The notes below the pieces were generated by a model. It did not search any database and was not told where the DNA came from. It worked only from the letters and a program-made list of their open reading frames with translations. From Escherichia phage HermannAdler_Bas98, in the sequence record PQ850608.1: DNA of 64,000 bases. The stretch is one strand, 5' to 3'. The first letter of the stretch is position 1. The number at the start of each line of letters is the position of its first letter. Below are positions 1-59,755 of the stretch, piece after piece. A program made the translations under genes and the position numbers.

Positions 1-240
1 TTCATCATTAACCAAAATGATAATTATTCTGGCGAATTTGATGAACACAAGTGTATGCTTGGATTTGATTCAGCAGAAGAAGCGAAAGAAGCTTATCAGG
101 CGTCATTTGGTAACGGTTGGAACGGATTTGACTCAATCCACGAATTGGATGTCAACTCATTCAAGGAGTGGTTGAAGGGTGATTGCTCTCAAGCATATGG
201 AGCACTCAACAATCCTACTAATTCACCGAAGCAAGGTTGA
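1..240 (+). CDS. 3' end of a gene starting upstream of the window (probably portal protein)
   Basis: Frame open from base 1 to TGA 238-240; directly followed by Mu F-like head morphogenesis gene, the usual neighbour of portal; product not recognisable from 80 aa. Confidence 0.35.
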   Translation, partial: FIINQNDNYSGEFDEHKCMLGFDSAEEAKEAYQASFGNGWNGFDSIHELDVNSFKEWLKGDCSQAYGALNNPTNSPKQG

Positions 241-241
241 T

Positions 242-1093
242 ATGGCTTTTAAAGCTTCGAAAAAACGTGAACGCCGCTTACCCGATAGAGTCGGGCGCGG
301 CAGTCCGATAATCCCATCCAACGCAATCGCGATGGCCTATCGTCGTGAGATGAAAGGTCTTTGCTATGCGATGATTGACGACTATCAAGAAGGAATTGCT
401 GAGTGGCTTGAAAAGAAGCAGGTAAAAAAATTCTTTGCGCAAGACTCTGCTGATTCAACTTTTCAAACCTTGATGAAGCGCCTTCAACTGAAATGGGCAA
501 AAGCATTCGCCCGTGTCGGGTCAAAGATTGCCGCAGATTTCATCAAGTCAGTTGAAAAGGGCGCGACTTCTGCTACATTTGCAAGTCTTAAATCTGCAGG
601 AATAGAAGCGCCAAAAGCCACATATAATAAATTCGTTGAGAACACTCTTAAAACAAGCGAGACGTTCAACACGACTTTAGTGACTAAGGTTGGCGAGGAT
701 ATTCACAACAGGGTGTACGAAGCGGTGATGCTTTCGCTGACTTCGCCAGACCCAGCGCAACAAGGCACGTCCGGCATTCAGGCGGCATTAAGGCATGTAA
801 AACACTTCTCTGCAAAACGCGTAGACCTTATCGCCAAAGACCAAACGAGCAAACTTTATTGCGTATTAAGTGATGAAAGAATGCGACAGAATGGCGTTGA
901 GGAATTTGAGTGGGCGCATTCAGGAGCAGGAAAAGAGCCGCGAATATCGCATGAGCATGTCGATGGGATGAGATTCAAGCTTGATGACAAACGCTTATGG
1001 GAAGTAGGTGGAGAACTTAAGTTCAAAAAGGGTGACATCGGTCCTCCTGGATGGGCGATACACTGCAAGTGCAGAAAAATACCAATTATCTGA
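242..1093 (+). CDS. head morphogenesis protein (Mu F / SPP1 gp7-like)
   Basis: C-terminal HEHVDG...PPGWAIHCKCR matches the Mu F domain signature (H..DG ... nCRC); ATG 2 nt after upstream stop. Confidence 0.75.
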   Translation: MAFKASKKRERRLPDRVGRGSPIIPSNAIAMAYRREMKGLCYAMIDDYQEGIAEWLEKKQVKKFFAQDSADSTFQTLMKRLQLKWAKAFARVGSKIAADFIKSVEKGATSATFASLKSAGIEAPKATYNKFVENTLKTSETFNTTLVTKVGEDIHNRVYEAVMLSLTSPDPAQQGTSGIQAALRHVKHFSAKRVDLIAKDQTSKLYCVLSDERMRQNGVEEFEWAHSGAGKEPRISHEHVDGMRFKLDDKRLWEVGGELKFKKGDIGPPGWAIHCKCRKIPII

Positions 1094-1100
1094 GGTCATT

Positions 1101-2021
1101 ATGACGATACCAATCAACACATTCCCTCTATCTGGACAAACTCCAGTCTTGCCTGCGGTGTATGCTAATGGCTTGGCAATTGTCTCAGAATTCACTTCTG
1201 ATAAAAACTTGATTGTTCCACTGAGCCCGCCGCTTGCATCAGGGTATAACTCAGTAGGTCAATTCTTTATGATTGGAAATGATGGCGATTCGACCAGCAA
1301 GCCTAATCTGACATTGTCTGTACCTAAGATGGACATCACAGACGTTCAAACTGGCTTGACTGCATCAACAATCACCATTGCTTTTGGAGAAGCGGTGATT
1401 ATAGGAATGGAGTCTGGAGGGTCCAAGAATGCTGTCGCCGTTAAGGTAGTCAAATCCATCGACAACCAATACACGTTACCAGCTGCGACGGCTTCCGTTC
1501 TCGGCGGCGTCAAAATAGGAAGCGGAATAAGCGTCGCAGGTGACGGTACAATTAGCGTCACCCAATACTCATTGCCGATTGCGTCAGCATCTACTTTAGG
1601 CGGCGTAAAGGTCGGTACAACTCTATCAATTGATGGTTCCGGTGTGCTTAACGCAGCGGAAAGCACCGTCCAGAATGCCACGAACAGTGTTAGCAATCCT
1701 CCAACCACTTTGGTTAATCTGGCGACCTTAAACCTTCCTGCAGGAAAGTGGCTTGTGACGGCAAGTCAGTTGACTGTCGCGACAGCAGGAATTCAAGCGA
1801 ATACCGGAATTACATCCAAATTGTCAACAAGCGATTCAGATATTACGGATGATGCATTTACGATGTCAGCTGGCATTCGGGCTGCAGGTCGTTTCGGCGG
1901 CAATATTCCAACAAAGATAATTACTCTTGCCGCTCCTGGCGATGTGTATCTAAACTATCAATGCACAGATGCGTTGACATCTACCGTTTACGGACAGATC
2001 ACCGCAATCAAGCTGAACTAA
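1101..2021 (+). CDS. hypothetical virion protein with internal Gly/Thr-rich duplicated repeats
   Basis: ATG 1101 preceded by GAGGT; internal repeat ASVLGGVKIGSGISVAGDGTISV / ASTLGGVKVGTTLSIDGSGVLNA; position in head module. Confidence 0.5.
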   Translation: MTIPINTFPLSGQTPVLPAVYANGLAIVSEFTSDKNLIVPLSPPLASGYNSVGQFFMIGNDGDSTSKPNLTLSVPKMDITDVQTGLTASTITIAFGEAVIIGMESGGSKNAVAVKVVKSIDNQYTLPAATASVLGGVKIGSGISVAGDGTISVTQYSLPIASASTLGGVKVGTTLSIDGSGVLNAAESTVQNATNSVSNPPTTLVNLATLNLPAGKWLVTASQLTVATAGIQANTGITSKLSTSDSDITDDAFTMSAGIRAAGRFGGNIPTKIITLAAPGDVYLNYQCTDALTSTVYGQITAIKLN

Positions 2022-2031
2022 AGAGGAAGTT

Positions 2032-2169
2032 ATGCAAAAGATTATTCAGTCACGTTATGTTAAAGTGCGAAATATTAATTGCAACTCTTTGCTTTCTTGG
2101 AAATGGGCCGTTTACGACTCGATGTTAATTGGCGTTTTAGTTGCAGGAGTGCTATTTAATATTCACTGA
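2032..2169 (+). CDS. small hydrophobic protein (45 aa)
   Basis: ATG 2032 after AGAGGAAG; one hydrophobic segment (SMLIGVLVAGVLF); short ORF, weak support. Confidence 0.25.
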   Translation: MQKIIQSRYVKVRNINCNSLLSWKWAVYDSMLIGVLVAGVLFNIH

Positions 2170-2204
2170 ATTCATCGGCAAAGGATTGCCGCGAGTTTTA
2201 TACG

Positions 2205-2480
2205 TATAATGACGTATCATCCGTATCAAGTAAGTTATTGTTTTCAAAAGAATCTTACGGATGATACGGATGATACGCGTTGCCGCCGTACTATATAGGA
2301 ATTCAAATAAATTAATTTAAAATTATATATCTAATTTAATTTTATTTTTTTATAAACTCTTATATATGAAAAGTATCCGTATCATCCGTATCATCCGTAG
2401 CACACCAGTGATAGCGCGGCTTATACACCGATACGGATAAAAATACGCCTCATTTTATCCGTATCATCCGTATCACACTA
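2205..2480. repeat. iteron / AT-rich module A: tandem and inverted copies of the 9-mer ATCCGTATC flanking an AT-rich core
   Basis: ATCCGTATCATCCGTATCATCCGTAG at 2376-2399, ACGGATGATACGGATGATACG at 2259-2277, further copies 2213-2228 and 2458-2476; AT-rich core 2290-2360 contains GAATTC. Confidence 0.7.
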
Positions 2481-2532
2481 ATAAAGGCGCGGCTATATTG
2501 GTTGTTATACATATTCAAACCATAATTATTGT

Positions 2533-2561
2533 TTGCCTAAGTTTTTTTCATTAGATATAAT
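2533..2561 (+). promoter_or_regulatory. sigma70-type promoter candidate for the scaffold/capsid operon
   Basis: TTGCCT - 17 nt - TATAAT, 30 nt upstream of the 2591 start. Confidence 0.45.
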
Positions 2562-2590
2562 ACACAATACTTATTTGAGGGTGGATGCGA

Positions 2591-4006
2591 ATGCAAACGG
2601 CACGCGAAATTGACAAAAATGGATTCTTGACGATTATGGGTTGTCCAATTTCGTCATTTGGCATTTTTGATTATTCTGCTGGTCAAGTCGGTCTTGATGG
2701 TGATCCGAATCGCATCGTAAAAGTCTATCGCCCTGAGTCAGCGGTGAAAGACCCCGAAGCGATAGATTCATTCAAAAATATCCCTTTCATCGACAATCAC
2801 GAAATGCTTTCTGGATTTGAAGGTGATGAGGATAACACAGCACCCGAAGAGTATGGAGTTGATGGCGTTCTGACTGGCAATGTTTATTATGACAAGCCAT
2901 GGATGCGCGGCGACCTTAAAGTGTTTAGCCGTCGTCTGAAGAAGGCCATTGATTCTGGAAAGGTTGACTTGTCTTTGGGCTATGACTGTGAATTCATCAT
3001 ACAGTCTGGAGAGTTTGACGGGCAGCCGTATGAAGTGGTGCAGACAACTCTTCGCGGCAACCACATTGCTCTCGTGGACGTTGGTCGAGTACCAGGTGCA
3101 CGGGTGCTGGATGGTCGTTGCTTTGACCATCTTTGTTTGACGACTGTAACACCATCCAACGAGGATTTAGACATGCCAAAACCGTTAAAAGGTAAAGCGC
3201 GTGATAATGCTGTTGAACAGCTGAAATCACTGATCCCTGCGCTCGAACAATTTCTGAACGAAGAGAGTACTGAAGCTGCTCATCAGGACGAAGTTGAAGT
3301 GAAAGCAGAAGAGAAGGACTCAACCGAAAATCGTGAAGAAGTAATGGTTGATCCAGAAGTCAAGGCAGAAGCAGAAGAAACCCCAGAAGGTGAAGAGAAG
3401 TTTGAAGTTGAAACTGAATCTCACGCTGGCGGCGAACTTCCGCAATTGATCAGCCAAATCGAAGCACTTATTGCAAAACTGAAAGGTGGCGCGGTAGGTG
3501 ATGAAGAAGAAGTTGAAGCCGAAGTCAAAGACGAAGAAGAAGTTGAAGTCAAGGCTGAAGATGTATCACCTTGCGACAAAGCTGAAGATGTGGTTAGCGG
3601 CCTGCAAAACAGCAACGTAAAGGGGGCTTCGGTCGAAAAAGATGACAAACCGACAAAAGCGGCGAAAGCGTCGCCAGGTCCAGCAAAAGGGGAACACTCA
3701 ATGGCATCTGATTCAGCAGTTGCTGCTTTCTACGCTGATTCTGCTCGTAAGAATAGCCTCTACCAGCGCCTGTCTAAAGTTGTTGGTGCCTTTGATCATG
3801 CAACTATGGACTCCAAGTCCGTAGCGAAATATGGCGCTAAAAAGTTAGGCTTGAAGTGCGTTGATGGTGCTGAGTTTGACGTGGTGGATAATTATCTGCG
3901 CGGCGTTGAGCACGGTCAAAAACAGCGTGTAGTCGCAAAACAAAAGGCCGCTGCGGATTCTGCAGCAACTGACGAAGCATTTGAAGCTTGGTTGAAAGGG
4001 GAATAA
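2591..4006 (+). CDS. putative prohead protease / scaffolding protein
   Basis: Globular N-terminal domain followed by a long acidic E/K-rich coiled-coil-like tail (EEVEAEVKDEEE...); sits between head morphogenesis and capsid genes; GAGGGTGG RBS. Confidence 0.45.
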   Translation: MQTAREIDKNGFLTIMGCPISSFGIFDYSAGQVGLDGDPNRIVKVYRPESAVKDPEAIDSFKNIPFIDNHEMLSGFEGDEDNTAPEEYGVDGVLTGNVYYDKPWMRGDLKVFSRRLKKAIDSGKVDLSLGYDCEFIIQSGEFDGQPYEVVQTTLRGNHIALVDVGRVPGARVLDGRCFDHLCLTTVTPSNEDLDMPKPLKGKARDNAVEQLKSLIPALEQFLNEESTEAAHQDEVEVKAEEKDSTENREEVMVDPEVKAEAEETPEGEEKFEVETESHAGGELPQLISQIEALIAKLKGGAVGDEEEVEAEVKDEEEVEVKAEDVSPCDKAEDVVSGLQNSNVKGASVEKDDKPTKAAKASPGPAKGEHSMASDSAVAAFYADSARKNSLYQRLSKVVGAFDHATMDSKSVAKYGAKKLGLKCVDGAEFDVVDNYLRGVEHGQKQRVVAKQKAAADSAATDEAFEAWLKGE

Positions 4007-23498: not shown

Positions 23499-24143
23499 AT
23501 GATTAATGCAAACGTAATATCTAAAGGGACCGGATGCAGCATGGATGTTGCTGAAAAATGGGTCGACCCCTTCAAGCAGGCTTGTGAGCACTACGGAATC
23601 AAAAGCAAGAATGCCATCGCTGCGCTGCTTGCAAACGTAGGAGTGGAAACAGGCAGTCTGAAGACCTTTGTGGAAAACCTGAATTATTCCGCTCAAGGTC
23701 TTGCTAATACGTGGCCTAGCCGTTACAGCGCCAGCGGTCGTTTCGGTGGCGCACCAAACTCCTTGGCATTGTCGATTGCCCGTAAACCAATGGAAATCGC
23801 CAATAATACATATGCAAACCGAATGGGAAATGGTTCGGTAGCATCTGGCGACGGTTGGAAGTACCGTGGCCGTGGTGCCATTCAGCTGACTGGAAAGGAT
23901 AACTATGCAGAGTATTCAAAGCAATCAGGGTATGACGCATTGAATAACCCTGACATTTTGACTGAGCCGAAATACATTGCTGACAGCGCGGCATGGTTCT
24001 TCAAGAACAGCGGTTGCATTCCACTTGCCGATGCGGGCGCATTTGATTCGACCGTGAAGCGGATTAACGGGGCCGCGCCAAATACGGCTAACCATGGGGA
24101 TTTGCGACGGAAGCGTTACAAGGAAGCACTAGCAGTTATGTAA
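23499..24143 (+). CDS. endolysin, glycoside hydrolase family 19 (chitinase-like lysozyme)
   Basis: AALLANVGVETGSL and YRGRGAIQLTGKDNY match GH19 catalytic blocks. Confidence 0.7.
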   Translation: MINANVISKGTGCSMDVAEKWVDPFKQACEHYGIKSKNAIAALLANVGVETGSLKTFVENLNYSAQGLANTWPSRYSASGRFGGAPNSLALSIARKPMEIANNTYANRMGNGSVASGDGWKYRGRGAIQLTGKDNYAEYSKQSGYDALNNPDILTEPKYIADSAAWFFKNSGCIPLADAGAFDSTVKRINGAAPNTANHGDLRRKRYKEALAVM

Positions 24144-53999: not shown

Positions 54000-54016
54000 T
54001 TATGATTAATGTTAAG

Positions 54017-54037
54017 AGGGCCGATTGGCCCTTTTTA
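54017..54037 (+). terminator. rho-independent terminator
   Basis: GGGCC-GATT-GGCCC hairpin followed by TTTTT; then TTTGCCT resembling cassette -35. Confidence 0.55.
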
Positions 54038-54529
54038 TTTGCCTGTGTAATGGGAGGCTTTTGTGGTTATTTACGATTCAAGGCTGTAATTTAAGAGAGC
54101 GAAAATATTATAATAATTTATCAAGATTATTGCATATTGTGGCAATCAACGTTTATACGTATTTATGACAGTTTAATCCACTAAATAATACGGATAGAAC
54201 AGTGAGGAAAATACAGCGGTGTATTTTAGTGTAAATATTGAATCAAAAATAAATAATTATGGTGCTATTATATACGCAGATTGTTTGTAATTTATAGGAT
54301 ATTTTATCGTGGAGTATTGGCTAACGGTGCGTTAGCCGTGGGTCTTGGTGCTTGTGGTGTTGATGCTCAGAATTTTAATAATGTTTTTAGTTTTAGTAAT
54401 CGTAGTCAATGATGATACGTATAAGAAAATGAGAGTCACCCCTTCACAGGATATTGTACCGTGGCCCTGTGGTGCGCCGCGCCTGGGATTGCTGGTATAC
54501 ACTGGTGCTATTTTGCCGCGAAGGCAGTC

Positions 54530-54790
54530 ATTCATACGTATCATGACGTATCATTGGGCTATTGATTTATAAGGAAAAATACGCTGATACGGATGATACG
54601 GGTGCAAACATAATATATATAGAATTCCAGAAAATTAATTAACTCCATTTTGAATTAATTTAAATTAATTTTTTTCTACATCCTCATACTTATACTAAAC
54701 TTATATTCATACGTATCATCCGTAAGATATAAGTAAAAACAAGGACTTGCGGCAATACGGATGATACGTCATGATACGCTTCGACCAGCC
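54530..54790. repeat. iteron / AT-rich module B (homologous to 2205-2480)
   Basis: CATACGTATCATGACGTATCAT, GATACGGATGATACG, AT-rich core with GAATTC and AATTAATTTAAATTAATTTTTTT, then CATACGTATCATCCGTA and AATACGGATGATACGTCATGATACG. Confidence 0.7.
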
Positions 54791-54943
54791 AGCAGCGGCT
54801 AAGTCATTGATTTGCATAGCAAGCGGCGAAAGGGATGGATTTCTTTTATACGTATCAAACAGTACACCACGCACCACGGTCCGCAATCCTATTTGCAATA
54901 TGATTTGTGTACGTTTATAGCCATAATGAACATCAATCTGCAC

Positions 54944-54972
54944 TTGAATATAATGTCCATCCATTGTATAAT
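54944..54972 (+). promoter_or_regulatory. sigma70-type promoter candidate
   Basis: TTGAAT - 17 nt - TATAAT. Confidence 0.45.
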
Positions 54973-54992
54973 TCACACTATTAATTTGCACT

Positions 54993-55481
54993 ATGGGATT
55001 TTGCACTATGAGTCAAGATTATGTAGCGATGCCTGAAGACTTTGAAGACCCGCGATTCGCAGAGCACAATCAGGCTTTATTCGATGAGTTCATTGACCTT
55101 GTTATTCAGGGTCATGACATGCGCGCAGCTTTTGCACTAGTATTTGGAATGGAAGTTGCAACGGATAACTACACTGGCCAGCGAATCCTTTGCACGCAAC
55201 GCAATCCATACTACAAGATGCGCTTCAAAAAGCGTATGGAAGAGATGCCACTCAAGGATTTGTGGAGCGTAAAAGGTGCAATTCACAATTTGGTCAAGCT
55301 TGTGCGTGATCCAGAAGTCGCGGCGTCAGCCAAGCTTAATGCTATTCGTGAACTGAATATCATCTACGGCATCACGATGATTGATGAAAACGGCAATAGT
55401 AAAATGGGCCGTTCTATGGACGATTTCTACAAGGATTTTGGAGAGGCTGCCAAAGAAGGAGAGCAATTCTCCCGCCACTAG
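54993..55481 (+). CDS. hypothetical protein (possible helix-turn-helix; terminase small subunit-like)
   Basis: 162 aa ORF; no Shine-Dalgarno; the repeat motif TTTGCACTATG lies on its start region; functional call speculative. Confidence 0.4.
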   Translation: MGFCTMSQDYVAMPEDFEDPRFAEHNQALFDEFIDLVIQGHDMRAAFALVFGMEVATDNYTGQRILCTQRNPYYKMRFKKRMEEMPLKDLWSVKGAIHNLVKLVRDPEVAASAKLNAIRELNIIYGITMIDENGNSKMGRSMDDFYKDFGEAAKEGEQFSRH

Positions 55482-55500
55482 CCAATTTGCACTATAAAAC

Positions 55501-55534
55501 GGCCCTAGAACACATGTTCTCCACTTCTAGGGCC
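55501..55534 (+). terminator. stem-loop (possible terminator)
   Basis: GGCCCTAGAA - 14 nt - TTCTAGGGCC; no T tract. Confidence 0.35.
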
Positions 55535-55595
55535 ATCGGTAATACGACGGGGAAGGTCGCACCCATAAACGCGTTAGAAAGTGTATTATTATAAG

Positions 55596-55859
55596 TCATC
55601 TTTTAGTCGCTTTACGTAACAATTTACGACCTTCAACCGTCCAATCGAACGACTCCACCAGCAGATTCGCACTATAACCTAAGACGATGCGCCCTTTCTC
55701 GTTATCGACCCGCCAACAAGTCTCGAATAGCATTCGATTTGCACTATTAACTATTGCCGCAACGCGCGTAGGGTAAGCGCAATTTGCACTATGGTCGTAA
55801 AGGGATAAGGTGCGACCACTTCCGATGGACAATGTAGCGATGAGAATAAGCGTATTCAT
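55596..55859 (-). CDS. hypothetical protein (doubtful ORF within repeat array)
   Basis: 87 aa ORF with GGTGG RBS, but contains three motif copies (translated as SAN). Confidence 0.3.
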   Translation of the reverse strand: MNTLILIATLSIGSGRTLSLYDHSANCAYPTRVAAIVNSANRMLFETCWRVDNEKGRIVLGYSANLLVESFDWTVEGRKLLRKATKR

Positions 55860-55909
55860 AAGCCACCAATTTGCACTATGAAAAGCGACCCCGAAGGGCC
55901 GCCATTCGA

Positions 55910-56536
55910 TTAGATAATCTGGAAGGTGTAGGACTTGTTGCCGAACTCGAAGTTCAAGCGTCCAGCTTCTTTAAGCTTCATGCGGAAGCGAATGTGCTTG
56001 CTATCCGGTAATCCCAGCGCGGCGAAGGCTACGCGGACCGATTTGAACTCGCCTACACCCTCGACCATAACGCCGTTACGGGTGAGACGCTTTTGCGCCA
56101 CTTCCTTATTATCCCAACTTTTTGCAATACCTTCGCTATTCGAACGGCGATGGGAAGGAGTTCCATTTTGCACTACGCAATTTGCACTATCGTTTAAGCC
56201 GCTCTTAACGAAGGCTTCATACTCTTCATCGCTCATCGCGTCGAGTTCTTCCTGGGTCGGCTCAGCCTTTTTAACGACCGCACGCGCCTTATGCGTTTTT
56301 ACATCACTGGACACTTCCTCACGCGGCTTCGCGTCGGGAATGGGCGATTCGTTGGACGGCTCATCGAGCGCGTTTAAGGACTCGATTAACGCGATTACGC
56401 GAGTCTCGGCGGTCCGGCGGTCCGCAAATTTCTTAATCGGCTTCGAACCGGAATTTGCATTATAAAATGCAACGAGGTCGGCGGTCTTAGTTGCGATAAC
56501 GTCGCCGCTAGTAGAAAAGCGATTTAAGCTAACCAT
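55910..56536 (-). CDS. hypothetical protein (candidate DNA-binding protein of the island)
   Basis: 208 aa; RBS context AGGAGTTTATTATGG identical to the next gene; two motif copies inside coding sequence. Confidence 0.5.
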   Translation of the reverse strand: MVSLNRFSTSGDVIATKTADLVAFYNANSGSKPIKKFADRRTAETRVIALIESLNALDEPSNESPIPDAKPREEVSSDVKTHKARAVVKKAEPTQEELDAMSDEEYEAFVKSGLNDSANCVVQNGTPSHRRSNSEGIAKSWDNKEVAQKRLTRNGVMVEGVGEFKSVRVAFAALGLPDSKHIRFRMKLKEAGRLNFEFGNKSYTFQII

Positions 56537-56616
56537 AATAAACTCCTATTTGTTAGGGCGCTAGGCGCGAAAGAATTTTATTAAAGCGCCGCGCACGACG
56601 CTCTAAAAATCCTCTC

Positions 56617-56931
56617 TTACTCTTCGTCGTCTTCGATTAATTCGAGGGCGAAGGCGTAAGCTTTGCTATCGTAATTAACTAAAACGGCGAGTTCGAACTC
56701 GTTAATAAACGCCGTTTTACCGCATAAATTTAATTCCGCATCGACTTCGAAGAATCCGTTTTCGTCGCGCTCTAAGCGAGAAGCAGCGAGTTGCTCGATT
56801 ACCGTCGCGTCGTTAATTTCTTCGCCTAAGCGAACGCCGGAGAATTTCGCGAGAATTTCGCCGTAAGTAAGCGTAACGCCCTGGACTTCGGCGGCGGCGT
56901 TTTCGAGGGTAAAGCGGGTAACGATAGCCAT
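56617..56931 (-). CDS. small very acidic protein (104 aa)
   Basis: 22 Asp/Glu vs 7 Lys/Arg; AGGAGTTTATTATGG start context; C-ending codon bias distinct from neighbouring early genes. Confidence 0.6.
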   Translation of the reverse strand: MAIVTRFTLENAAAEVQGVTLTYGEILAKFSGVRLGEEINDATVIEQLAASRLERDENGFFEVDAELNLCGKTAFINEFELAVLVNYDSKAYAFALELIEDDEE

Positions 56932-56999
56932 AATAAACTCCTAGTTGGGAGAGGCGTTAACGACCTATTCGTTAACTCATCCCGTCCCGATATGAGTAC

Positions 57000-57027
57000 A
57001 TTATAATATAGTGTAGAAAAAAGTAAA
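57000..57027 (-). promoter_or_regulatory. promoter cassette copy (minus strand) driving 56617-56931
   Basis: Minus strand reads GTGCTTTACT - 16 nt - TATAAT ... ATATCGGGACGGG, matching the two plus-strand cassettes. Confidence 0.5.
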
Positions 57028-57071
57028 GCACTTTTTCGATAAAAATGCGATAAATTATTTTATCTTTTTTC

Positions 57072-57099
57072 TTTACTTCTTCGTACACTCGCGTATACT
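57072..57099 (+). promoter_or_regulatory. promoter cassette copy driving 57156-57458
   Basis: CTTTACTTCTTCGTACACT ... TATACT (16 nt spacer) ... TTTATATCGAGACGGG. Confidence 0.5.
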
Positions 57100-57155
57100 T
57101 GTTTATATCGAGACGGGCGATGGCCCTTTCTTCTACTAGCATCGGGAGCTTTATT

Positions 57156-57458
57156 ATGACTACTTTAATCTCTTCCATCCTTACTTACGACGAAGACCGC
57201 TTAACCGTTCGCTCTCTTATCGCCGCCGTTAACGCGGAACTAGAATCTAGCGCCATTAAGGTCCGCGCGGTCGCCTTCATCGGCCTTTCCTTCGACGATA
57301 TGAAGTATGCCGAACGTAGCGCCATCCGCTTCGCGAAGACCGACGACGAAGCCGTTACCCTTATCGAGACGGTTACGCCGCGCGGCGAAGCGTTAATTAT
57401 CGTCGAGTATATCGACGTAGAAGGCGATAAATCTTATAAACATTTTATCGCAGAATAA
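57156..57458 (+). CDS. small acidic protein (100 aa)
   Basis: 18 Asp/Glu vs 11 Lys/Arg; C-ending codon bias. Confidence 0.6.
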   Translation: MTTLISSILTYDEDRLTVRSLIAAVNAELESSAIKVRAVAFIGLSFDDMKYAERSAIRFAKTDDEAVTLIETVTPRGEALIIVEYIDVEGDKSYKHFIAE

Positions 57459-57470
57459 CGAAAAAAGTGC

Positions 57471-57499
57471 TTTACTTCTTCGTACACTAAGACTATAAT
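57471..57499 (+). promoter_or_regulatory. promoter cassette copy driving 57567-57857
   Basis: GTGCTTTACTTCTTCGTACACT ... TATAAT (17 nt spacer) ... TTTATATCGAGAGGGG. Confidence 0.55.
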
Positions 57500-57566
57500 G
57501 TTTTATATCGAGAGGGGATGAGGTAGCGAATAGGTCACTACCCTCCCGACTAACTAGGAGAATATT

Positions 57567-57857
57567 ATGATTACTTTAGCCGCTATCCGTTCCGCTCGCG
57601 TCGAAACTTCCGAAAACTCTAACGTATTTGGCGAAAAACTTAAAAACGTTTATCTCTTTAACGTAGATGCGACTATCGAGGAGCTTCACAGTCCTATCGA
57701 TTTTAGCGAATTTACGGAACTCGAAGAGGAAGATATTTCTACCTTCCGCGTTACTATCGAAGGCAAGGTTTATTTTGCTACGGAGTTCGGCGGCGAATAT
57801 CTCGCGGTATCCGAAGGCGAAGGCCGTTACTCTTTCTTTAAAATCGTTTCCTTATAA
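57567..57857 (+). CDS. small acidic protein (96 aa)
   Basis: 18 Asp/Glu vs 8 Lys/Arg; TAGGAG RBS. Confidence 0.6.
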   Translation: MITLAAIRSARVETSENSNVFGEKLKNVYLFNVDATIEELHSPIDFSEFTELEEEDISTFRVTIEGKVYFATEFGGEYLAVSEGEGRYSFFKIVSL

Positions 57858-57877
57858 TACCCTTCCGTTACTAATAG

Positions 57878-57900
57878 GCCGCGCTTAGTCGCGGCTTTTC
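57878..57900 (+). terminator. rho-independent terminator
   Basis: GCCGCG-CTTAGT-CGCGGC followed by TTTT. Confidence 0.6.
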
Positions 57901-57904
57901 TTCG

Positions 57905-58555
57905 TCCCTATCTCGATGCGCTCCTACGCGAAAACTCCTTTATCCTTCCCTTCGTCGTCGCATAATCTTCTTCGAGATGCGTCTTAGTTCGCATAACAGG
58001 TATTACGTTAAATGGAGAACATCGCGTAAGTCCTTGTTTTATATAGACACCTATATCGGACCGTTAGGGCGGGTCGCGTAAGTCGTTGTTTTATAAAGGC
58101 ACAAAACTTTCCCTTCGTTCCGAACTAAAACGAGAAATATGCCGACCCTTCGCCCGAAAATAGTACGTATGCGAAATTACATTCATCTCGAATAATCCCT
58201 CCCGATATTATCCTACACGCAATCATTCGCTTTCGAATCATTATGCTTCATATTATTATGCGTCGAATCATTCGCTTTCGAATTGTAACGCTGGAAACTG
58301 TAACGTCGATTGATTATTGCGTTCGTGTGGTTTTTATGGCATGGGTCTTTTGGTGCGTTTTGCTACTTGATGGAATTTGCGGTACACTAATCAAAATACG
58401 ACACATTTGGTCCACTAACTTTTCAAAGAAAAAGTCCTAGACAGTACCGTACTATTTTGTACCCACAGGAAATTTGCAGTACACTCCTGAGCGGCAGGCA
58501 AAATAAAGGGCCGCACTAAGCGACCCACGATTCACGGTTAAATCAGCAACACCCA
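57905..58555. repeat. noncoding repeat-rich region
   Basis: No credible ORF; duplicated GCGTAAGTC(C/G)TTGTTTTATA, duplicated AATCATTCGCTTTCGAAT (ATTCG...CGAAT arms), duplicated TTTGC(G/A)GTACACT. Confidence 0.55.
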
Positions 58556-58936
58556 CTATTCGCTCTTATGGGCATCACCAAAGCCATCCGCAATCTGGCT
58601 GATCAATGATTCAATGGACACAGTTTTACCAATTGATCGAGCGGTAATAGCAAGCATATTATCAATCAAACCATGATTGGATGCATATGGTCCAGGTTTT
58701 GAATCATCTTCAGGACAACCAAAAAGCTGGTCGCGCAAACTTTCGAGAGAACGCTCAATATTTTCCAGCTTCTCTTCTAAATCAGATTGGCGACGTAAAA
58801 CCCATGTTAAGTCTCGGTTGCCGACTTCCAATCCATCGAAATCGCAAGCTGGAACGTCAATTTTAATACTTGGATTAAAAGCAGTACCGCTGCCTTTAGT
58901 ATATTTGTGGTGATTGCGATCAATAGTTTGTGACAT
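58556..58936 (-). CDS. hypothetical protein
   Basis: Start MSQTIDR chosen (AAGGT RBS). Confidence 0.45.
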   Translation of the reverse strand: MSQTIDRNHHKYTKGSGTAFNPSIKIDVPACDFDGLEVGNRDLTWVLRRQSDLEEKLENIERSLESLRDQLFGCPEDDSKPGPYASNHGLIDNMLAITARSIGKTVSIESLISQIADGFGDAHKSE

Positions 58937-59030
58937 ATCATTACCTTTAATATTTGGGTGATTAACAATAACTATAATAAAGCCGCATAGCGCGGCATTC
59001 AAATCGGTTTGTTAATTGTAACGATTGAAT

Positions 59031-59126
59031 TTACTTATCCAACCAATCAATAAGCGCAATCATAGCAACAACAAATACTGCGCTGATTGCTAATATGATC
59101 AAGAACATCACAAAATCAACATTCAT
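59031..59126 (-). CDS. small membrane peptide (31 aa)
   Basis: MNVDFVMFLIILAISAVFVVAMIALIDWLDK; overlaps upstream gene end. Confidence 0.3.
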   Translation of the reverse strand: MNVDFVMFLIILAISAVFVVAMIALIDWLDK

Positions 59127-59352
59127 CAATCGATACCAATTGTGCAGGGTCGCCGGATACAGTTGCGCCGATGATACCCATATGAGAGAAAAATTCTGAA
59201 TAAACTTCTTTCCAGTACTTGCGCGCAGCTTTCTGGGCTTGCCCTTTGCGCTTGTAGCTTTTACCTTGGAAGATGAAGCGGTCGTTTGCTGCGTTATATT
59301 CCACCACACCTTCCAGCCATTGTAAGAAAGCTACTGATTCATTTTGATTCAT
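59116..59352 (-). CDS. hypothetical protein
   Basis: 78 aa ORF. Confidence 0.45.
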   Translation of the reverse strand: MNQNESVAFLQWLEGVVEYNAANDRFIFQGKSYKRKGQAQKAARKYWKEVYSEFFSHMGIIGATVSGDPAQLVSIDEC

Positions 59353-59359
59353 GTTAACC

Positions 59360-59755
59360 TCAACAATCTAATAAGAAAATTTTTAACCAGCTTTCTGCAA
59401 CCTCGCGGCCCGTAGCCAATCGGTCGGTATTTTCCATTGGTCTGGATTTACCGCATGGCAATCCTTTCTGTAGTTGTGTCCCACTGCCAATTCTTATCCA
59501 AATTTCCCCATCCTTGTCGACGTAGGCTTGGCAACCCATAATATCAAGTCTACTCATTAGGGTGTTAAAAACCTTGAGCCTTTCTTTGGCGATGTTGGCT
59601 GTTCCTCCATTTCTTGGACCACGGCGATTAACAGTCCGCTTCACAACCGGAATATCATTGGTGCGTCGCGGCTTGGGGCGGTAGTAGGCTTCTTCACCAG
59701 GAGTGACACCTGGCGTCAGTTCGCGCTTAAGCGCCTTTTCAATATCAATGATCAT
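59360..59755 (-). CDS. hypothetical protein
   Basis: 131 aa basic ORF. Confidence 0.5.
   Translation of the reverse strand: MIIDIEKALKRELTPGVTPGEEAYYRPKPRRTNDIPVVKRTVNRRGPRNGGTANIAKERLKVFNTLMSRLDIMGCQAYVDKDGEIWIRIGSGTQLQKGLPCGKSRPMENTDRLATGREVAESWLKIFLLDC

What the first reader, a model, noticed from the sequence alone, without database searches (positions are those of the whole stretch)
57905..58555. 650 bp noncoding region with three families of short duplicated motifs
Downstream of the island terminator there is no credible ORF. The region carries duplicated GCGTAAGTC(C/G)TTGTTTTATA (58024, 58076), duplicated AATCATTCGCTTTCGAAT with ATTCG...CGAAT arms (58220, 58264), and duplicated TTTGC(G/A)GTACACT (58376, 58472), which echoes both the cassette element GTACACT and the AATTTGCAC array motif. 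It may hold a cluster of early promoters/operators, a small RNA, or the physical genome terminus.
Basis: seen in the sequence. Interest (0 to 1): 0.5.

Follow-up and report, generated by a model that had tools for sequence, protein, structure and literature searches.

The report
Phage terminal-repeat boundary and end-cutting signal
This noncoding stretch is where the 3.7 kb terminal repeat of a Wifcevirus coliphage ends, so the right end of the packaged chromosome falls inside it; one of its repeated motifs belongs to a sequence kept at a fixed distance from that end in three phage genera, which makes it a candidate DNA-packaging signal.

Summary
All three duplicated motif families are real and non-random, and the region has no conserved ORF. 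The window is a Wifcevirus (PB1-like E. coli myovirus) assembled with one copy of its ~3.7 kb direct terminal repeat (DTR). Five relatives have defined DTR ends. Four (WFH, Ro157lw, SP13, Mansfield/PhageTerm) put the right boundary at ...GGGTCTTT|TGGTGCG, window 58350|58351. WFC is the outlier, ~82 bp further right. The left boundary is 54646|54647.

The finding is therefore a spacer between convergent terminators (57876-57897 +, 58508-58526 -) that straddles the right genome end.
- Motifs 1 and 2 lie in the last ~330 bp of the repeat.
- Both motif 3 copies lie just outside it.

New here: the 41 nt after the cut (TGGTGCG.TTT...GTACACTAA, including motif 3a) are conserved at the same offset in Pantoea phage Kyle and Serratia phage MyoSmar.
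- The AATCATT core of motif 2 also recurs inside the Kyle boundary.
- Motif 1 is genus-specific and resembles the -35 half of the early promoter cassettes.

Most likely this is the right-end terminase recognition and cut region. I found no support for a small RNA and no strong promoter cluster; a weak promoter at motif 3a remains possible. The T5 injection-stop region is a structural analogue, but DnaA boxes are absent. Interest is moderate.

The parts
54646..54647 (.). Left boundary of the direct terminal repeat (AATTAACTCC|ATTTTGAATT). It lies outside the finding but defines the repeat as 54647-58350, 3704 bp.
   Evidence: Identical junction sequence in WFH, WFC, Ro157lw and SP13 (records carry the repeat at both ends with 0 mismatches) and at position 1 of Mansfield, which was opened at the PhageTerm boundary.
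55008..55481 (+). Small terminase subunit gene (terS) inside the terminal repeat; the candidate reader of the signals described here.
   Evidence: A profile of this protein with its Kyle and MyoSmar homologues hits PDB 7UXE (small terminase of Pbunavirus E217) at E 1.2e-47 (identity of 7UXE from PMC9611059). It is annotated as terminase small subunit in Mansfield.
57876..57897 (+). Intrinsic terminator that ends the rightward early gene cassettes.
   Evidence: Terminator scan. Annotated as a terminator at the homologous place in Mansfield, WFH and WFC. Invariant in all 17 aligned sequences.
58022..58050 (+). Motif 1, copy a.
   Evidence: Lies in the most conserved 100 bp of the neighbourhood (0.9% mismatches across 8 relatives). 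Aligns with the -35 half of the cassette early promoters.
58074..58102 (+). Motif 1, copy b.
58221..58238 (+). Motif 2, copy a. It contains the AATCATT core, which is found at 58221, 58236 and 58266.
   Evidence: This copy is missing in phage Bas100 through a 45-bp deletion, exactly one repeat period.
58266..58283 (+). Motif 2, copy b.
58350..58351 (.). Right boundary of the direct terminal repeat, i.e. the inferred right physical end of virion DNA (...ATGGCATGGGTCTTT|TGGTGCG...).
   Evidence: Same junction in WFH (3701 bp repeat), Ro157lw (3533 bp), SP13 (3899 bp) and Mansfield (3673 bp, PhageTerm). The surrounding bases 58340-58362 are invariant in 17 sequences. WFC alone places the boundary about 82 bp further right.
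58351..58391 (+). Cut-proximal block conserved across genera: TGGTGCGTTTTGCTACTTGATGGAATTTGCGGTACACTAAT.
   Evidence: Anchored at the cut, 27/41 nt are identical to Serratia phage MyoSmar (2.5e-6 of random pairs score as high). Pantoea phage Kyle gives 21/41 with a 1-nt shift (6e-4). GTACACTAA starts 32-34 nt after the cut in all three genera.
58371..58388 (+). Motif 3, copy a; part of the conserved block.
58468..58485 (+). Motif 3, copy b. This is a second GTACACT element in the unique DNA, starting 118 nt after the cut (its GTACACT at +129).
   Evidence: MyoSmar and Kyle also carry a second same-strand GTACACT downstream of the cut, at about +64 and +372.
58508..58526 (-). Intrinsic terminator that ends the leftward operon beginning with gene 58556-58936.
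   Evidence: Terminator scan. Annotated at the homologous place in WFH and WFC.

Best explanation
The region is the untranslated spacer between two convergent transcription units that straddles the right-hand boundary of the phage's 3.7 kb direct terminal repeat. In replicating DNA the repeat is present once between unique segments. Terminase (TerS from 55008-55481 plus a large subunit encoded elsewhere) must cut at 54646|54647 and at 58350|58351, and the repeat is copied so that every virion carries it at both ends.

I propose that the conserved sequence just outside the right boundary (TGGTGCG.TTT, about 20 nt, then GTACACTAA, which includes motif 3a) is the recognition and positioning signal for the right-end cut. 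Motif 3b and the AATCATT repeats of motif 2 would be auxiliary binding sites on either side of the cut. Motif 1 is a genus-specific, promoter-cassette-derived element whose role is unknown.

Shown: the motifs exist, the region is noncoding, the boundary position by homology, and the cross-genus conservation at fixed spacing. Inferred: that terminase reads these sequences, and the way the repeat is duplicated.
For: - The window is a Wifcevirus, 92-98% identical to 28 records over this stretch.
- The genus has a ~3.7 kb terminal repeat (PMC6563267; PMC6753283).
- Four independently handled genomes give the same right junction, identical to window 58350|58351, and the same left junction.
- The region is bracketed by convergent terminators (annotated in relatives) and has no conserved ORF.
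- It is better conserved than the genes on either side. Mismatch rates are 0.9% at 58000-58099 and 2.4-3.1% at 58300-58499, against 15-31% at 57600-57899 and 13-41% at 58800-59700. Invariant runs surround the cut.
- Kyle (exact 3603 bp repeat at both record ends) and MyoSmar (PhageTerm repeat 1-3559) belong to other genera; their TerS proteins are 43% and 36% identical over the tblastn-aligned region. Both have the same block immediately after the right cut, with GTACACTAA starting 32-34 nt after it. Anchored identity is 27/41 and 21/41, p about 2.5e-6 and 6e-4.
- AATCATT/AATGATT occurs 3 times within 130 bp inside the cut here and 4 times within 140 bp inside the cut in Kyle. In the 5 kb views it is found elsewhere only once, in the window.
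- The last 100 nt inside the cut are G+T-rich on the top strand in all three genera.
- TerS identity is confirmed.
Against: - The termini of this particular isolate were not measured; the boundary is transferred by homology.
- The WFC record places the right repeat end about 82 bp further right, between motifs 3a and 3b. This is unexplained.
- No binding or cleavage data exist. The homologous E217 TerS showed no appreciable DNA binding in vitro (PMC9611059).
- The block is promoter-like in two of the three genera: TTGCTA-N17-TACACT here and TTCACA-N17-TACACT in MyoSmar. Conservation could therefore reflect transcription rather than packaging.
- A MyoSmar relative has GGACACT in place of the first GTACACT.
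- A Pbunavirus (Ab27) has no GTACACT in the first 7 kb after its presumed left end. The signal is therefore not family-wide.
- Motif 2 is the least conserved part, and one copy is dispensable in Bas100.
- Motif 1 has no counterpart in Kyle.
Confidence: 0.6

Rival explanations
1. The conserved block at motif 3a is a host-type (sigma-70) promoter firing rightward from just outside the repeat. It would make an antisense or regulatory transcript, or, as proposed for T7 phiOR, couple transcription to end formation. Motifs 1-3 would be operators for a phage regulator that also acts on the early cassette promoters.
For: TACACT keeps the two critical -10 positions. It sits 17 nt after TTGCTA in the window and after TTCACA in MyoSmar (read directly from the sequences). 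GTACACT also lies in the spacer of the two + strand cassette promoters, at 57083 and 57482. Motif 1 aligns with the -35 half of those promoters.
Against: The match is only 8/12 here and poor in Kyle (TTAGTA-N18). The consensus scan reports nothing on the + strand between 57905 and 58555. A transcript would run head-on into the leftward operon. GTACACT is absent from the homologous Kyle promoter. Motif 1 has no usable -10. The fixed distance to the cut is not explained by a promoter role alone.
Confidence: 0.15
2. The repeat-rich untranslated end of the terminal repeat is an injection-stop or first-step-transfer signal like the iss region of phage T5. It would hold DNA entry until early genes in the repeat have been expressed.
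For: The overall layout matches T5. There is a long terminal repeat with strong early promoters and small genes, then a conserved untranslated region full of direct and inverted repeats that overruns the repeat boundary into unique DNA. In T5, Repeat Region 3 overruns by 270 bp (bioRxiv 10.1101/866236); here the overrun is about 155-200 bp. The noncoding part is better conserved than the neighbouring genes, as in T5.
Against: There is no DnaA box in the region: only 2 TTWTNCACA sites in the whole window, both elsewhere. No A1/A2/dmp-like proteins were found; the repeat-encoded proteins have no Pfam hits and only unannotated PHROGs. The repeat carries terS, a late function. Which end enters first is unknown. 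Two-step entry has never been reported for these phages.
Confidence: 0.07
3. Motifs 1 and 2 are non-functional scars: remnants of duplicated or decayed promoter cassettes and slippage duplications in a recombination-prone spacer. On this view only the boundary itself matters.
For: Motif 1 plus the following TATATCGGACC aligns with a cassette promoter that has lost its -10. Cassettes come and go between relatives; a 210-nt gene is present next to the spacer in Eco4M-7, ECML-117, F13 and others but absent here. One motif 2 copy is lost in Bas100 by a one-period deletion, and the 58200-58275 stretch is the most variable part.
Against: The motif 1 pair sits in the best-conserved 100 bp of the neighbourhood (0.9% mismatches; invariant runs at 57999-58032 and 58080-58134). 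The AATCATT core of motif 2 recurs as a local cluster in another genus.
Confidence: 0.25
4. The region encodes a small RNA or holds an origin of replication with iteron-like repeats.
For: Pairs of direct repeats are spaced 45-97 bp apart in noncoding DNA. Folding of 57955-58205 as single-stranded DNA is slightly better than shuffles (z = -2.3).
Against: No Rfam match at E<=1 inside 57905-58555 (the two weak hits lie outside it). No promoter-plus-terminator unit lies inside. The sequence around the cut folds worse than shuffles (z = +1.7). No DnaA boxes and no IHF consensus in the region. There are only two copies per motif rather than an array.
Confidence: 0.05

Closest known systems
Concatemer-junction packaging signals of T7/T3-type phages (terminal repeat with adjacent pac sequences and short repeat arrays)
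   Same: Non-permuted genome with exact direct terminal repeats. The cut sites are fixed in sequence. Short repeated motifs and a promoter-like element lie in the unique DNA next to the repeat. This comparison rests on my own knowledge of the T7 literature; it was not checked here.
   Different: The repeat is 3.7 kb, not 160-230 bp, and carries genes including terS. The terminase is of the PB1/E217 type. No hairpin-forming sequence lies at the cut. There is no sequence similarity.
Phage T5 left-terminal-repeat untranslated Repeat Region 3 / injection stop signal (bioRxiv 10.1101/866236)
   Same: A long terminal repeat holds early genes. At its inner end lies a conserved untranslated stretch packed with nested direct and inverted repeats that overruns into unique DNA. 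This stretch is more conserved than the adjacent genes.
   Different: The region is 0.65 kb rather than 1.2 kb. There are no DnaA boxes, no long IRC/IRD inverted-repeat pair and no A1/A2 homologues. Two-step injection is not known for these phages.
Lambda cos (cosN nicking site plus cosB with repeated small-terminase R sites and an IHF site)
   Same: As a working analogy only: a defined cut with repeated short motifs, presumed small-terminase sites, within about 30-140 bp of it.
   Different: The ends here are a 3.7 kb duplicated repeat, not 12-nt cohesive ends. No IHF consensus is present. There is no sequence similarity.
Annotated direct terminal repeats of Wifcevirus, Kylevirus and Myosmarvirus genomes (Mansfield MK903282, WFH MK373776, Kyle NC_048796, MyoSmar MN062189)
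   Same: This is the same feature. The boundary in the window is the orthologue of the annotated or duplicated repeat ends.
   Different: Those records and papers report only the repeat length. In the papers I found and the passages I read, none describes the motifs or the conserved cut-proximal sequence.

Membership tests
Direct-terminal-repeat boundary / terminase end-cleavage site | Coincides with a mapped end of virion DNA | tested here: met
   By homology only. The sequence at 58350|58351 equals the right repeat end of WFH, Ro157lw and SP13 (repeat present at both record ends, 0 mismatches) and of Mansfield (PhageTerm). WFC differs by about 82 bp.
Direct-terminal-repeat boundary / terminase end-cleavage site | Termini of this very isolate shown by read pile-up or end sequencing | not testable with these tools
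   No reads or virion DNA are available. The window holds a single repeat copy.
Direct-terminal-repeat boundary / terminase end-cleavage site | Conserved sequence at a fixed distance from the cut in diverged relatives | tested here: met
   The TGGTGCG.TTT...GTACACTAA block starts at the first base after the cut in Wifcevirus and MyoSmar and is recognisable in Kyle. Anchored identity is 27/41 and 21/41, p 2.5e-6 and 6e-4. It is absent from Pbunavirus Ab27.
Direct-terminal-repeat boundary / terminase end-cleavage site | Sequence is bound or cut by terminase and needed for packaging | not testable with these tools
   This needs EMSA or footprinting, in vitro cleavage, or mutant phage.
T5-type injection stop signal | Large untranslated repeat-rich region at the inner end of the terminal repeat, overrunning into unique DNA | tested here: met
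   About 445 bp inside plus 155-200 bp outside the repeat, with three repeat families and no conserved ORF. T5 description.
T5-type injection stop signal | Paired DnaA boxes (TTWTNCACA) | tested here: not met
   Two matches in the whole window, at 23669 and 35884; none in 54000-59000.
T5-type injection stop signal | Long inverted repeat with a partner kilobases away in the same repeat | tested here: inconclusive
   The only case is a 13-nt inverted match of motif 1 at 54736, which is 12/13 in relatives.
T5-type injection stop signal | Pre-early A1/A2/dmp-type genes in the repeat | tested here: not met
   The six repeat-encoded proteins and the first gene beyond it (58559-58936) give no Pfam family and only two PHROGs of unknown function.
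Sigma-70 promoter/operator cluster | Good -35/-10 matches with proper spacing, oriented toward genes | tested here: not met
   No + strand site of >=9/12 within 57905-58555. Four weak 9/12 sites lie on the - strand. The best candidate found by hand is 8/12 at motif 3a.
Known small RNA / cis-regulatory RNA (Rfam) | Match to a curated covariance model | tested here: not met
   No hit inside 57905-58555 at E<=1.
Lambda-type cos site | Short cohesive ends and an IHF site beside the cut | tested here: not met
   The ends are a 3.7 kb exact repeat. No WATCAANNNNTTR site lies in the region.

The most novel reading that the evidence does not exclude
The GTACACT-containing block is a dual-purpose signal: a weak host-type promoter and the terminase right-end site in one. 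Transcription, or a TerS-type protein acting on both the early cassette promoters and the cut site, would then couple shut-off of early genes to the start of genome end formation. More radically, the whole spacer could be a DnaA-independent injection-stop signal, so that these very fast phages enter in two steps as T5 does.
Probability: 0.1. Interest if true: 0.6.

Novelty: new member of a known kind. Interest (0 to 1): 0.38.

Why it matters
How terminases of phages with long direct terminal repeats find and cut their two end sites is poorly understood. For the PB1/E217-type terminase, the review I consulted reports no appreciable DNA binding by E217 TerS in vitro, and I found no described recognition sequence. 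A 41-nt block that begins exactly at the right-end cut and is conserved across three genera gives a concrete, mutable candidate site. It would allow correct opening and annotation of Wifcevirus, Kylevirus and Myosmarvirus genomes from sequence alone. It also matters for engineering these therapy-relevant, very fast-growing coliphages. Beyond that, the feature is an expected component of a known genome architecture.

Tried and rejected
- **DnaA boxes:** none in the region.
- **IHF consensus:** none in the region.
- **Rfam at E<=1:** nothing inside the region.
- **Single-strand folding:** only a mild signal for 57955-58205 (z = -2.3). Less structure than chance around the cut (z = +1.7), so a T7-style hairpin is unlikely.
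- **Small ORFs, including those annotated in kaset, Mansfield and SP13:** most are broken in relatives.
- **Shared words between the left-junction and right-junction regions:** only one 13-mer, the inverted motif 1 core at 54736, which is 12/13 in relatives. The two cut sites therefore do not share an obvious sequence.
- **Exact-pattern scans of IMG/VR:**
  - Motif 1 and motif 3 recovered only Wifcevirus contigs plus single chance hits.
  - A looser gapped pattern gave 120+ chance hits.
  - A tighter one recovered only Wifcevirus and MyoSmar, plus hits that lack terS.
- **TerS-based locus search:** added one MyoSmar relative with the block. Four uncultivated contigs carried no same-strand GTACACT downstream of terS.
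- **Pbunavirus:** Ab27 lacks the motif. The PS44 record is not a clean two-ended repeat, having only a 573-bp internal overlap, so it was not used.
- **Pfam and PHROGs on the repeat genes:** uninformative.
- **Literature:** the E217 terminase paper (PMC10026623) is not held.

Full report
**What the sequence shows**

The stretch 57905-58555 lies between two convergent intrinsic terminators. One is on the + strand at 57876-57897, after the small rightward genes 57156-57458 and 57567-57857. The other is on the - strand at 58508-58526, after the leftward gene 58556-58936. The same terminators are annotated at the homologous places in phages Mansfield, WFH and WFC.

All three duplicated motifs are present:
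- Motif 1 at 58022-58050 and 58074-58102, 26/29 identical.
- Motif 2, exact, at 58221-58238 and 58266-58283.
- Motif 3 at 58374-58388 and 58471-58485.

None has another copy in the window. In 200 dinucleotide-preserving shuffles, repeats this strong are essentially absent: a mean of 0.11 segments scoring >=11, against 3 observed. Motifs 1 and 2 exceed every shuffle.

The ORFs of 31-65 aa in the stretch are not conserved. Five of the seven lose their start, are frameshifted, or gain or lose stops in 2-13 of 16 relatives.

**Where the window comes from**

The stretch is 89-98% identical to all 28 Wifcevirus records in the phage collection. These are E. coli/Shigella myoviruses of 66-72 kb, related to the PB1-like pbunaviruses. 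Two papers report a direct terminal repeat of about 3.7 kb for this genus:
- WFC and WFH (PMC6563267).
- Mansfield, 3,673 bp by PhageTerm (PMC6753283).

**The boundary**

Four records carry the repeat at both ends with zero mismatches: WFH (3701 bp), WFC (3784 bp), Ro157lw (3533 bp) and SP13 (3899 bp). Mansfield annotates the repeat as 1-3673.
- All five have the same left junction, AATTAACTCC|ATTTT, which is window 54646|54647.
- Four of the five have the same right junction, ...GGGCATGGGTCTTT|TGGTGCG..., which is window 58350|58351.
- WFC alone ends about 82 bp further right. I could not explain this.

So the window is an assembly with one repeat copy, 54647-58350 (3704 bp), and the finding straddles its right end. 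Motifs 1 and 2 lie in the last ~330 bp of the repeat. Both motif 3 copies lie in the unique DNA just beyond it.

**Conservation within the genus**

Across eight relatives with long flanks, the noncoding stretch is better conserved than the genes on either side:

| Window range | Mismatch rate |
|---|---|
| 58000-58099 | 0.9% |
| 58300-58499 | 2.4-3.1% |
| 57600-57899 | 15-31% |
| 58800-58999 | 13-15% |
| 59400-59699 | 21-41% |

In a 17-sequence alignment the longest invariant runs include 57999-58032, 58102-58134, 58281-58336 and 58340-58362, the last of which holds the cut. The motif 2 area (58200-58275) is the most variable. Phage Bas100 lacks one motif 2 copy through a 45-bp deletion, exactly one period.

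**Conservation across genera (the main new result)**

The TerS homologue search showed that terS sits a few hundred bp inside one repeat end in other genera too.
- Pantoea phage Kyle has an exact 3603-bp repeat at both record ends.
- Serratia phage MyoSmar has a PhageTerm repeat at 1-3559, in the opposite record orientation.

Read in terS orientation, the right junctions are:
- Window: ...GGGTCTTT|TGGTGCGTTTTGCTACTTGATGGAATTTGCGGTACACTAATCAAAAT
- MyoSmar: ...GCAAGGGC|TGGTGCGATTTCACACAAAATGGATTGGCACGTACACTAAATTCGC
- Kyle: ...GTGCCCTT|GACCGCGATTTAGTACCTGGTCCAATTTCACAGTACACTAATCAGAAT

GTACACTAA begins 32-34 nt after the cut in all three. Anchored at the cut without gaps, window and MyoSmar share 27 of 41 positions, a score reached by 2.5e-6 of random pairs from the same 5-kb regions. 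Window and Kyle share 21 of 41 with a 1-nt shift (6e-4).

Further shared features:
- Each genus has a second same-strand GTACACT further into the unique DNA.
- The AATCATT core of motif 2 occurs three times within 130 bp inside the cut here. As AATCATT/AATGATT it occurs four times within 140 bp inside the cut in Kyle, with only one other copy in either 5-kb view. It is absent in MyoSmar.
- The last 100 nt inside the cut are G+T-rich on the top strand in all three genera.

Limits of the conservation:
- A MyoSmar relative keeps the block with two substitutions, GGACACT for the first GTACACT.
- Pbunavirus Ab27 has no GTACACT in the first 7 kb after its presumed left end.
- Motif 1 has no counterpart in Kyle.

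**What motif 1 looks like**

When aligned with the three early cassette promoters (TTTACT-N16/17-TATAAT/TATACT at 57027-57000, 57072-57099 and 57471-57499), motif 1 matches their upstream half: AAGTGCTTTACTT against AAGTCCTTGTTTT. The following TATATCGGACC matches the post-promoter element TATATCGAGAC, and the -10 is missing in between. Motif 1 is therefore a promoter-cassette-derived sequence without a usable promoter. Yet it sits in the best-conserved 100 bp of the neighbourhood. Its role is open.

**Mechanism proposed**

The gene at 55008-55481 is a small terminase: a profile hits PDB 7UXE, the E217 TerS, at E 1.2e-47 (PMC9611059). I propose that the cut-proximal block is the recognition and positioning signal for the right-end cut, with motif 3b and the AATCATT repeats as auxiliary sites. 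The analogy is to repeated small-terminase sites beside cosN in lambda, or the pac sequences beside the T7 terminal repeat; both comparisons come from my own knowledge.

Shown: the position of the boundary by homology, the noncoding nature of the region, and conservation at fixed spacing. Inferred: terminase binding, and how the repeat is duplicated.

**Rivals**

- *Promoter.* TACACT is a plausible -10, and it lies 17 nt after TTGCTA here and after TTCACA in MyoSmar, so a weak rightward promoter is possible. It is poor in Kyle, scores below the scan threshold, and would fire into the opposing operon.
- *T5 injection stop.* The layout matches the untranslated Repeat Region 3 at the inner end of the T5 terminal repeat, which also overruns into unique DNA and is more conserved than its neighbours (bioRxiv 10.1101/866236). 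However, DnaA boxes are absent, no A1/A2-like genes were found, and the repeat carries the late gene terS.
- *Scars.* This is plausible for motif 2 and for the origin of motif 1, but it does not explain their conservation or the AATCATT cluster in Kyle.
- *Small RNA or origin.* There is no Rfam hit in the region, no internal transcription unit, no DnaA or IHF sites, and no excess structure at the cut.

**Novelty**

The terminal repeat of this genus is published and annotated. In the papers I found and the passages I read, only its length is reported, not the motifs or the conserved cut-proximal sequence. I file this as a new member of a known kind, a terminase end-site region of a phage with direct terminal repeats. 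Interest is moderate.

Noticed in passing
window 2203-2393 and 54536-54778: A ~190-bp quasi-palindromic element occurs twice: inverted CGTATCATCCGT/ACGGATGATACG repeats around an AT-rich core. The copies are 70% identical (E 1.6e-21) and align in both orientations. The exact 12-mer occurs 9 times in the window, only at these two places. One copy lies upstream of the DUF2213 head gene 2585-4006. The other contains the left terminal-repeat cut and lies upstream of terS. It may be a shared late-promoter or regulator module.
   Followed up: partly
window 54985-56189: TTTGCACTA occurs exactly 10 times in 64 kb. Nine copies are on the + strand in this 1.2 kb of the repeat, inside and between genes of both orientations, and several follow - strand terminators or overlap start codons. 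This suggests a strand-specific DNA-level signal; its function is unknown.
   Followed up: partly
window 54463-54488; L069 (MyoSmar) about 74-99 nt outside its repeat end at 3559: A 26-nt noncoding block, TGGCyCTrTGGTGCGCCGCGmCTGGG, is 88% conserved between Wifcevirus and MyoSmar in the unique DNA upstream of the left cut. It contains the same TGGTGCG that starts the unique DNA after the right cut.
   Followed up: no
window 58520-58545: Variable-number short tandem repeats (GACCCAC / CACGATT units) sit next to the - strand terminator. Mansfield has about five extra copies, and SP13, F13 and Bas99 have one extra unit.
   Followed up: no
window 57882-57902 and 58502-58522: The two convergent terminators are imperfect inverted copies of each other, sharing CGCTTAGT(C)GCGG (21 nt, 71%). 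The whole spacer is thus bracketed by an inverted repeat.
   Followed up: no
L004/L005 (WFC, MK373777): The WFC record's terminal repeat is 3784 bp and ends at CAAAGAAA|AAGTCC (window about 58431), roughly 82 bp beyond the junction used by WFH, Ro157lw, SP13 and Mansfield. The WFC sequence at the common junction is intact.
   Followed up: partly
window 54000-54580: The ~600 bp of unique DNA upstream of the left cut is replaced by unrelated sequence in most relatives; only 1-2 of 8 align. Conservation resumes about 65 bp before the cut.
   Followed up: no
window 56960-57100; L067 (Kyle) about 2240-2430: The divergent early promoter region is the only other noncoding stretch of the repeat recognisably conserved with phage Kyle (81% over 48 nt). 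The promoter cassette is therefore older than the genus.
   Followed up: no
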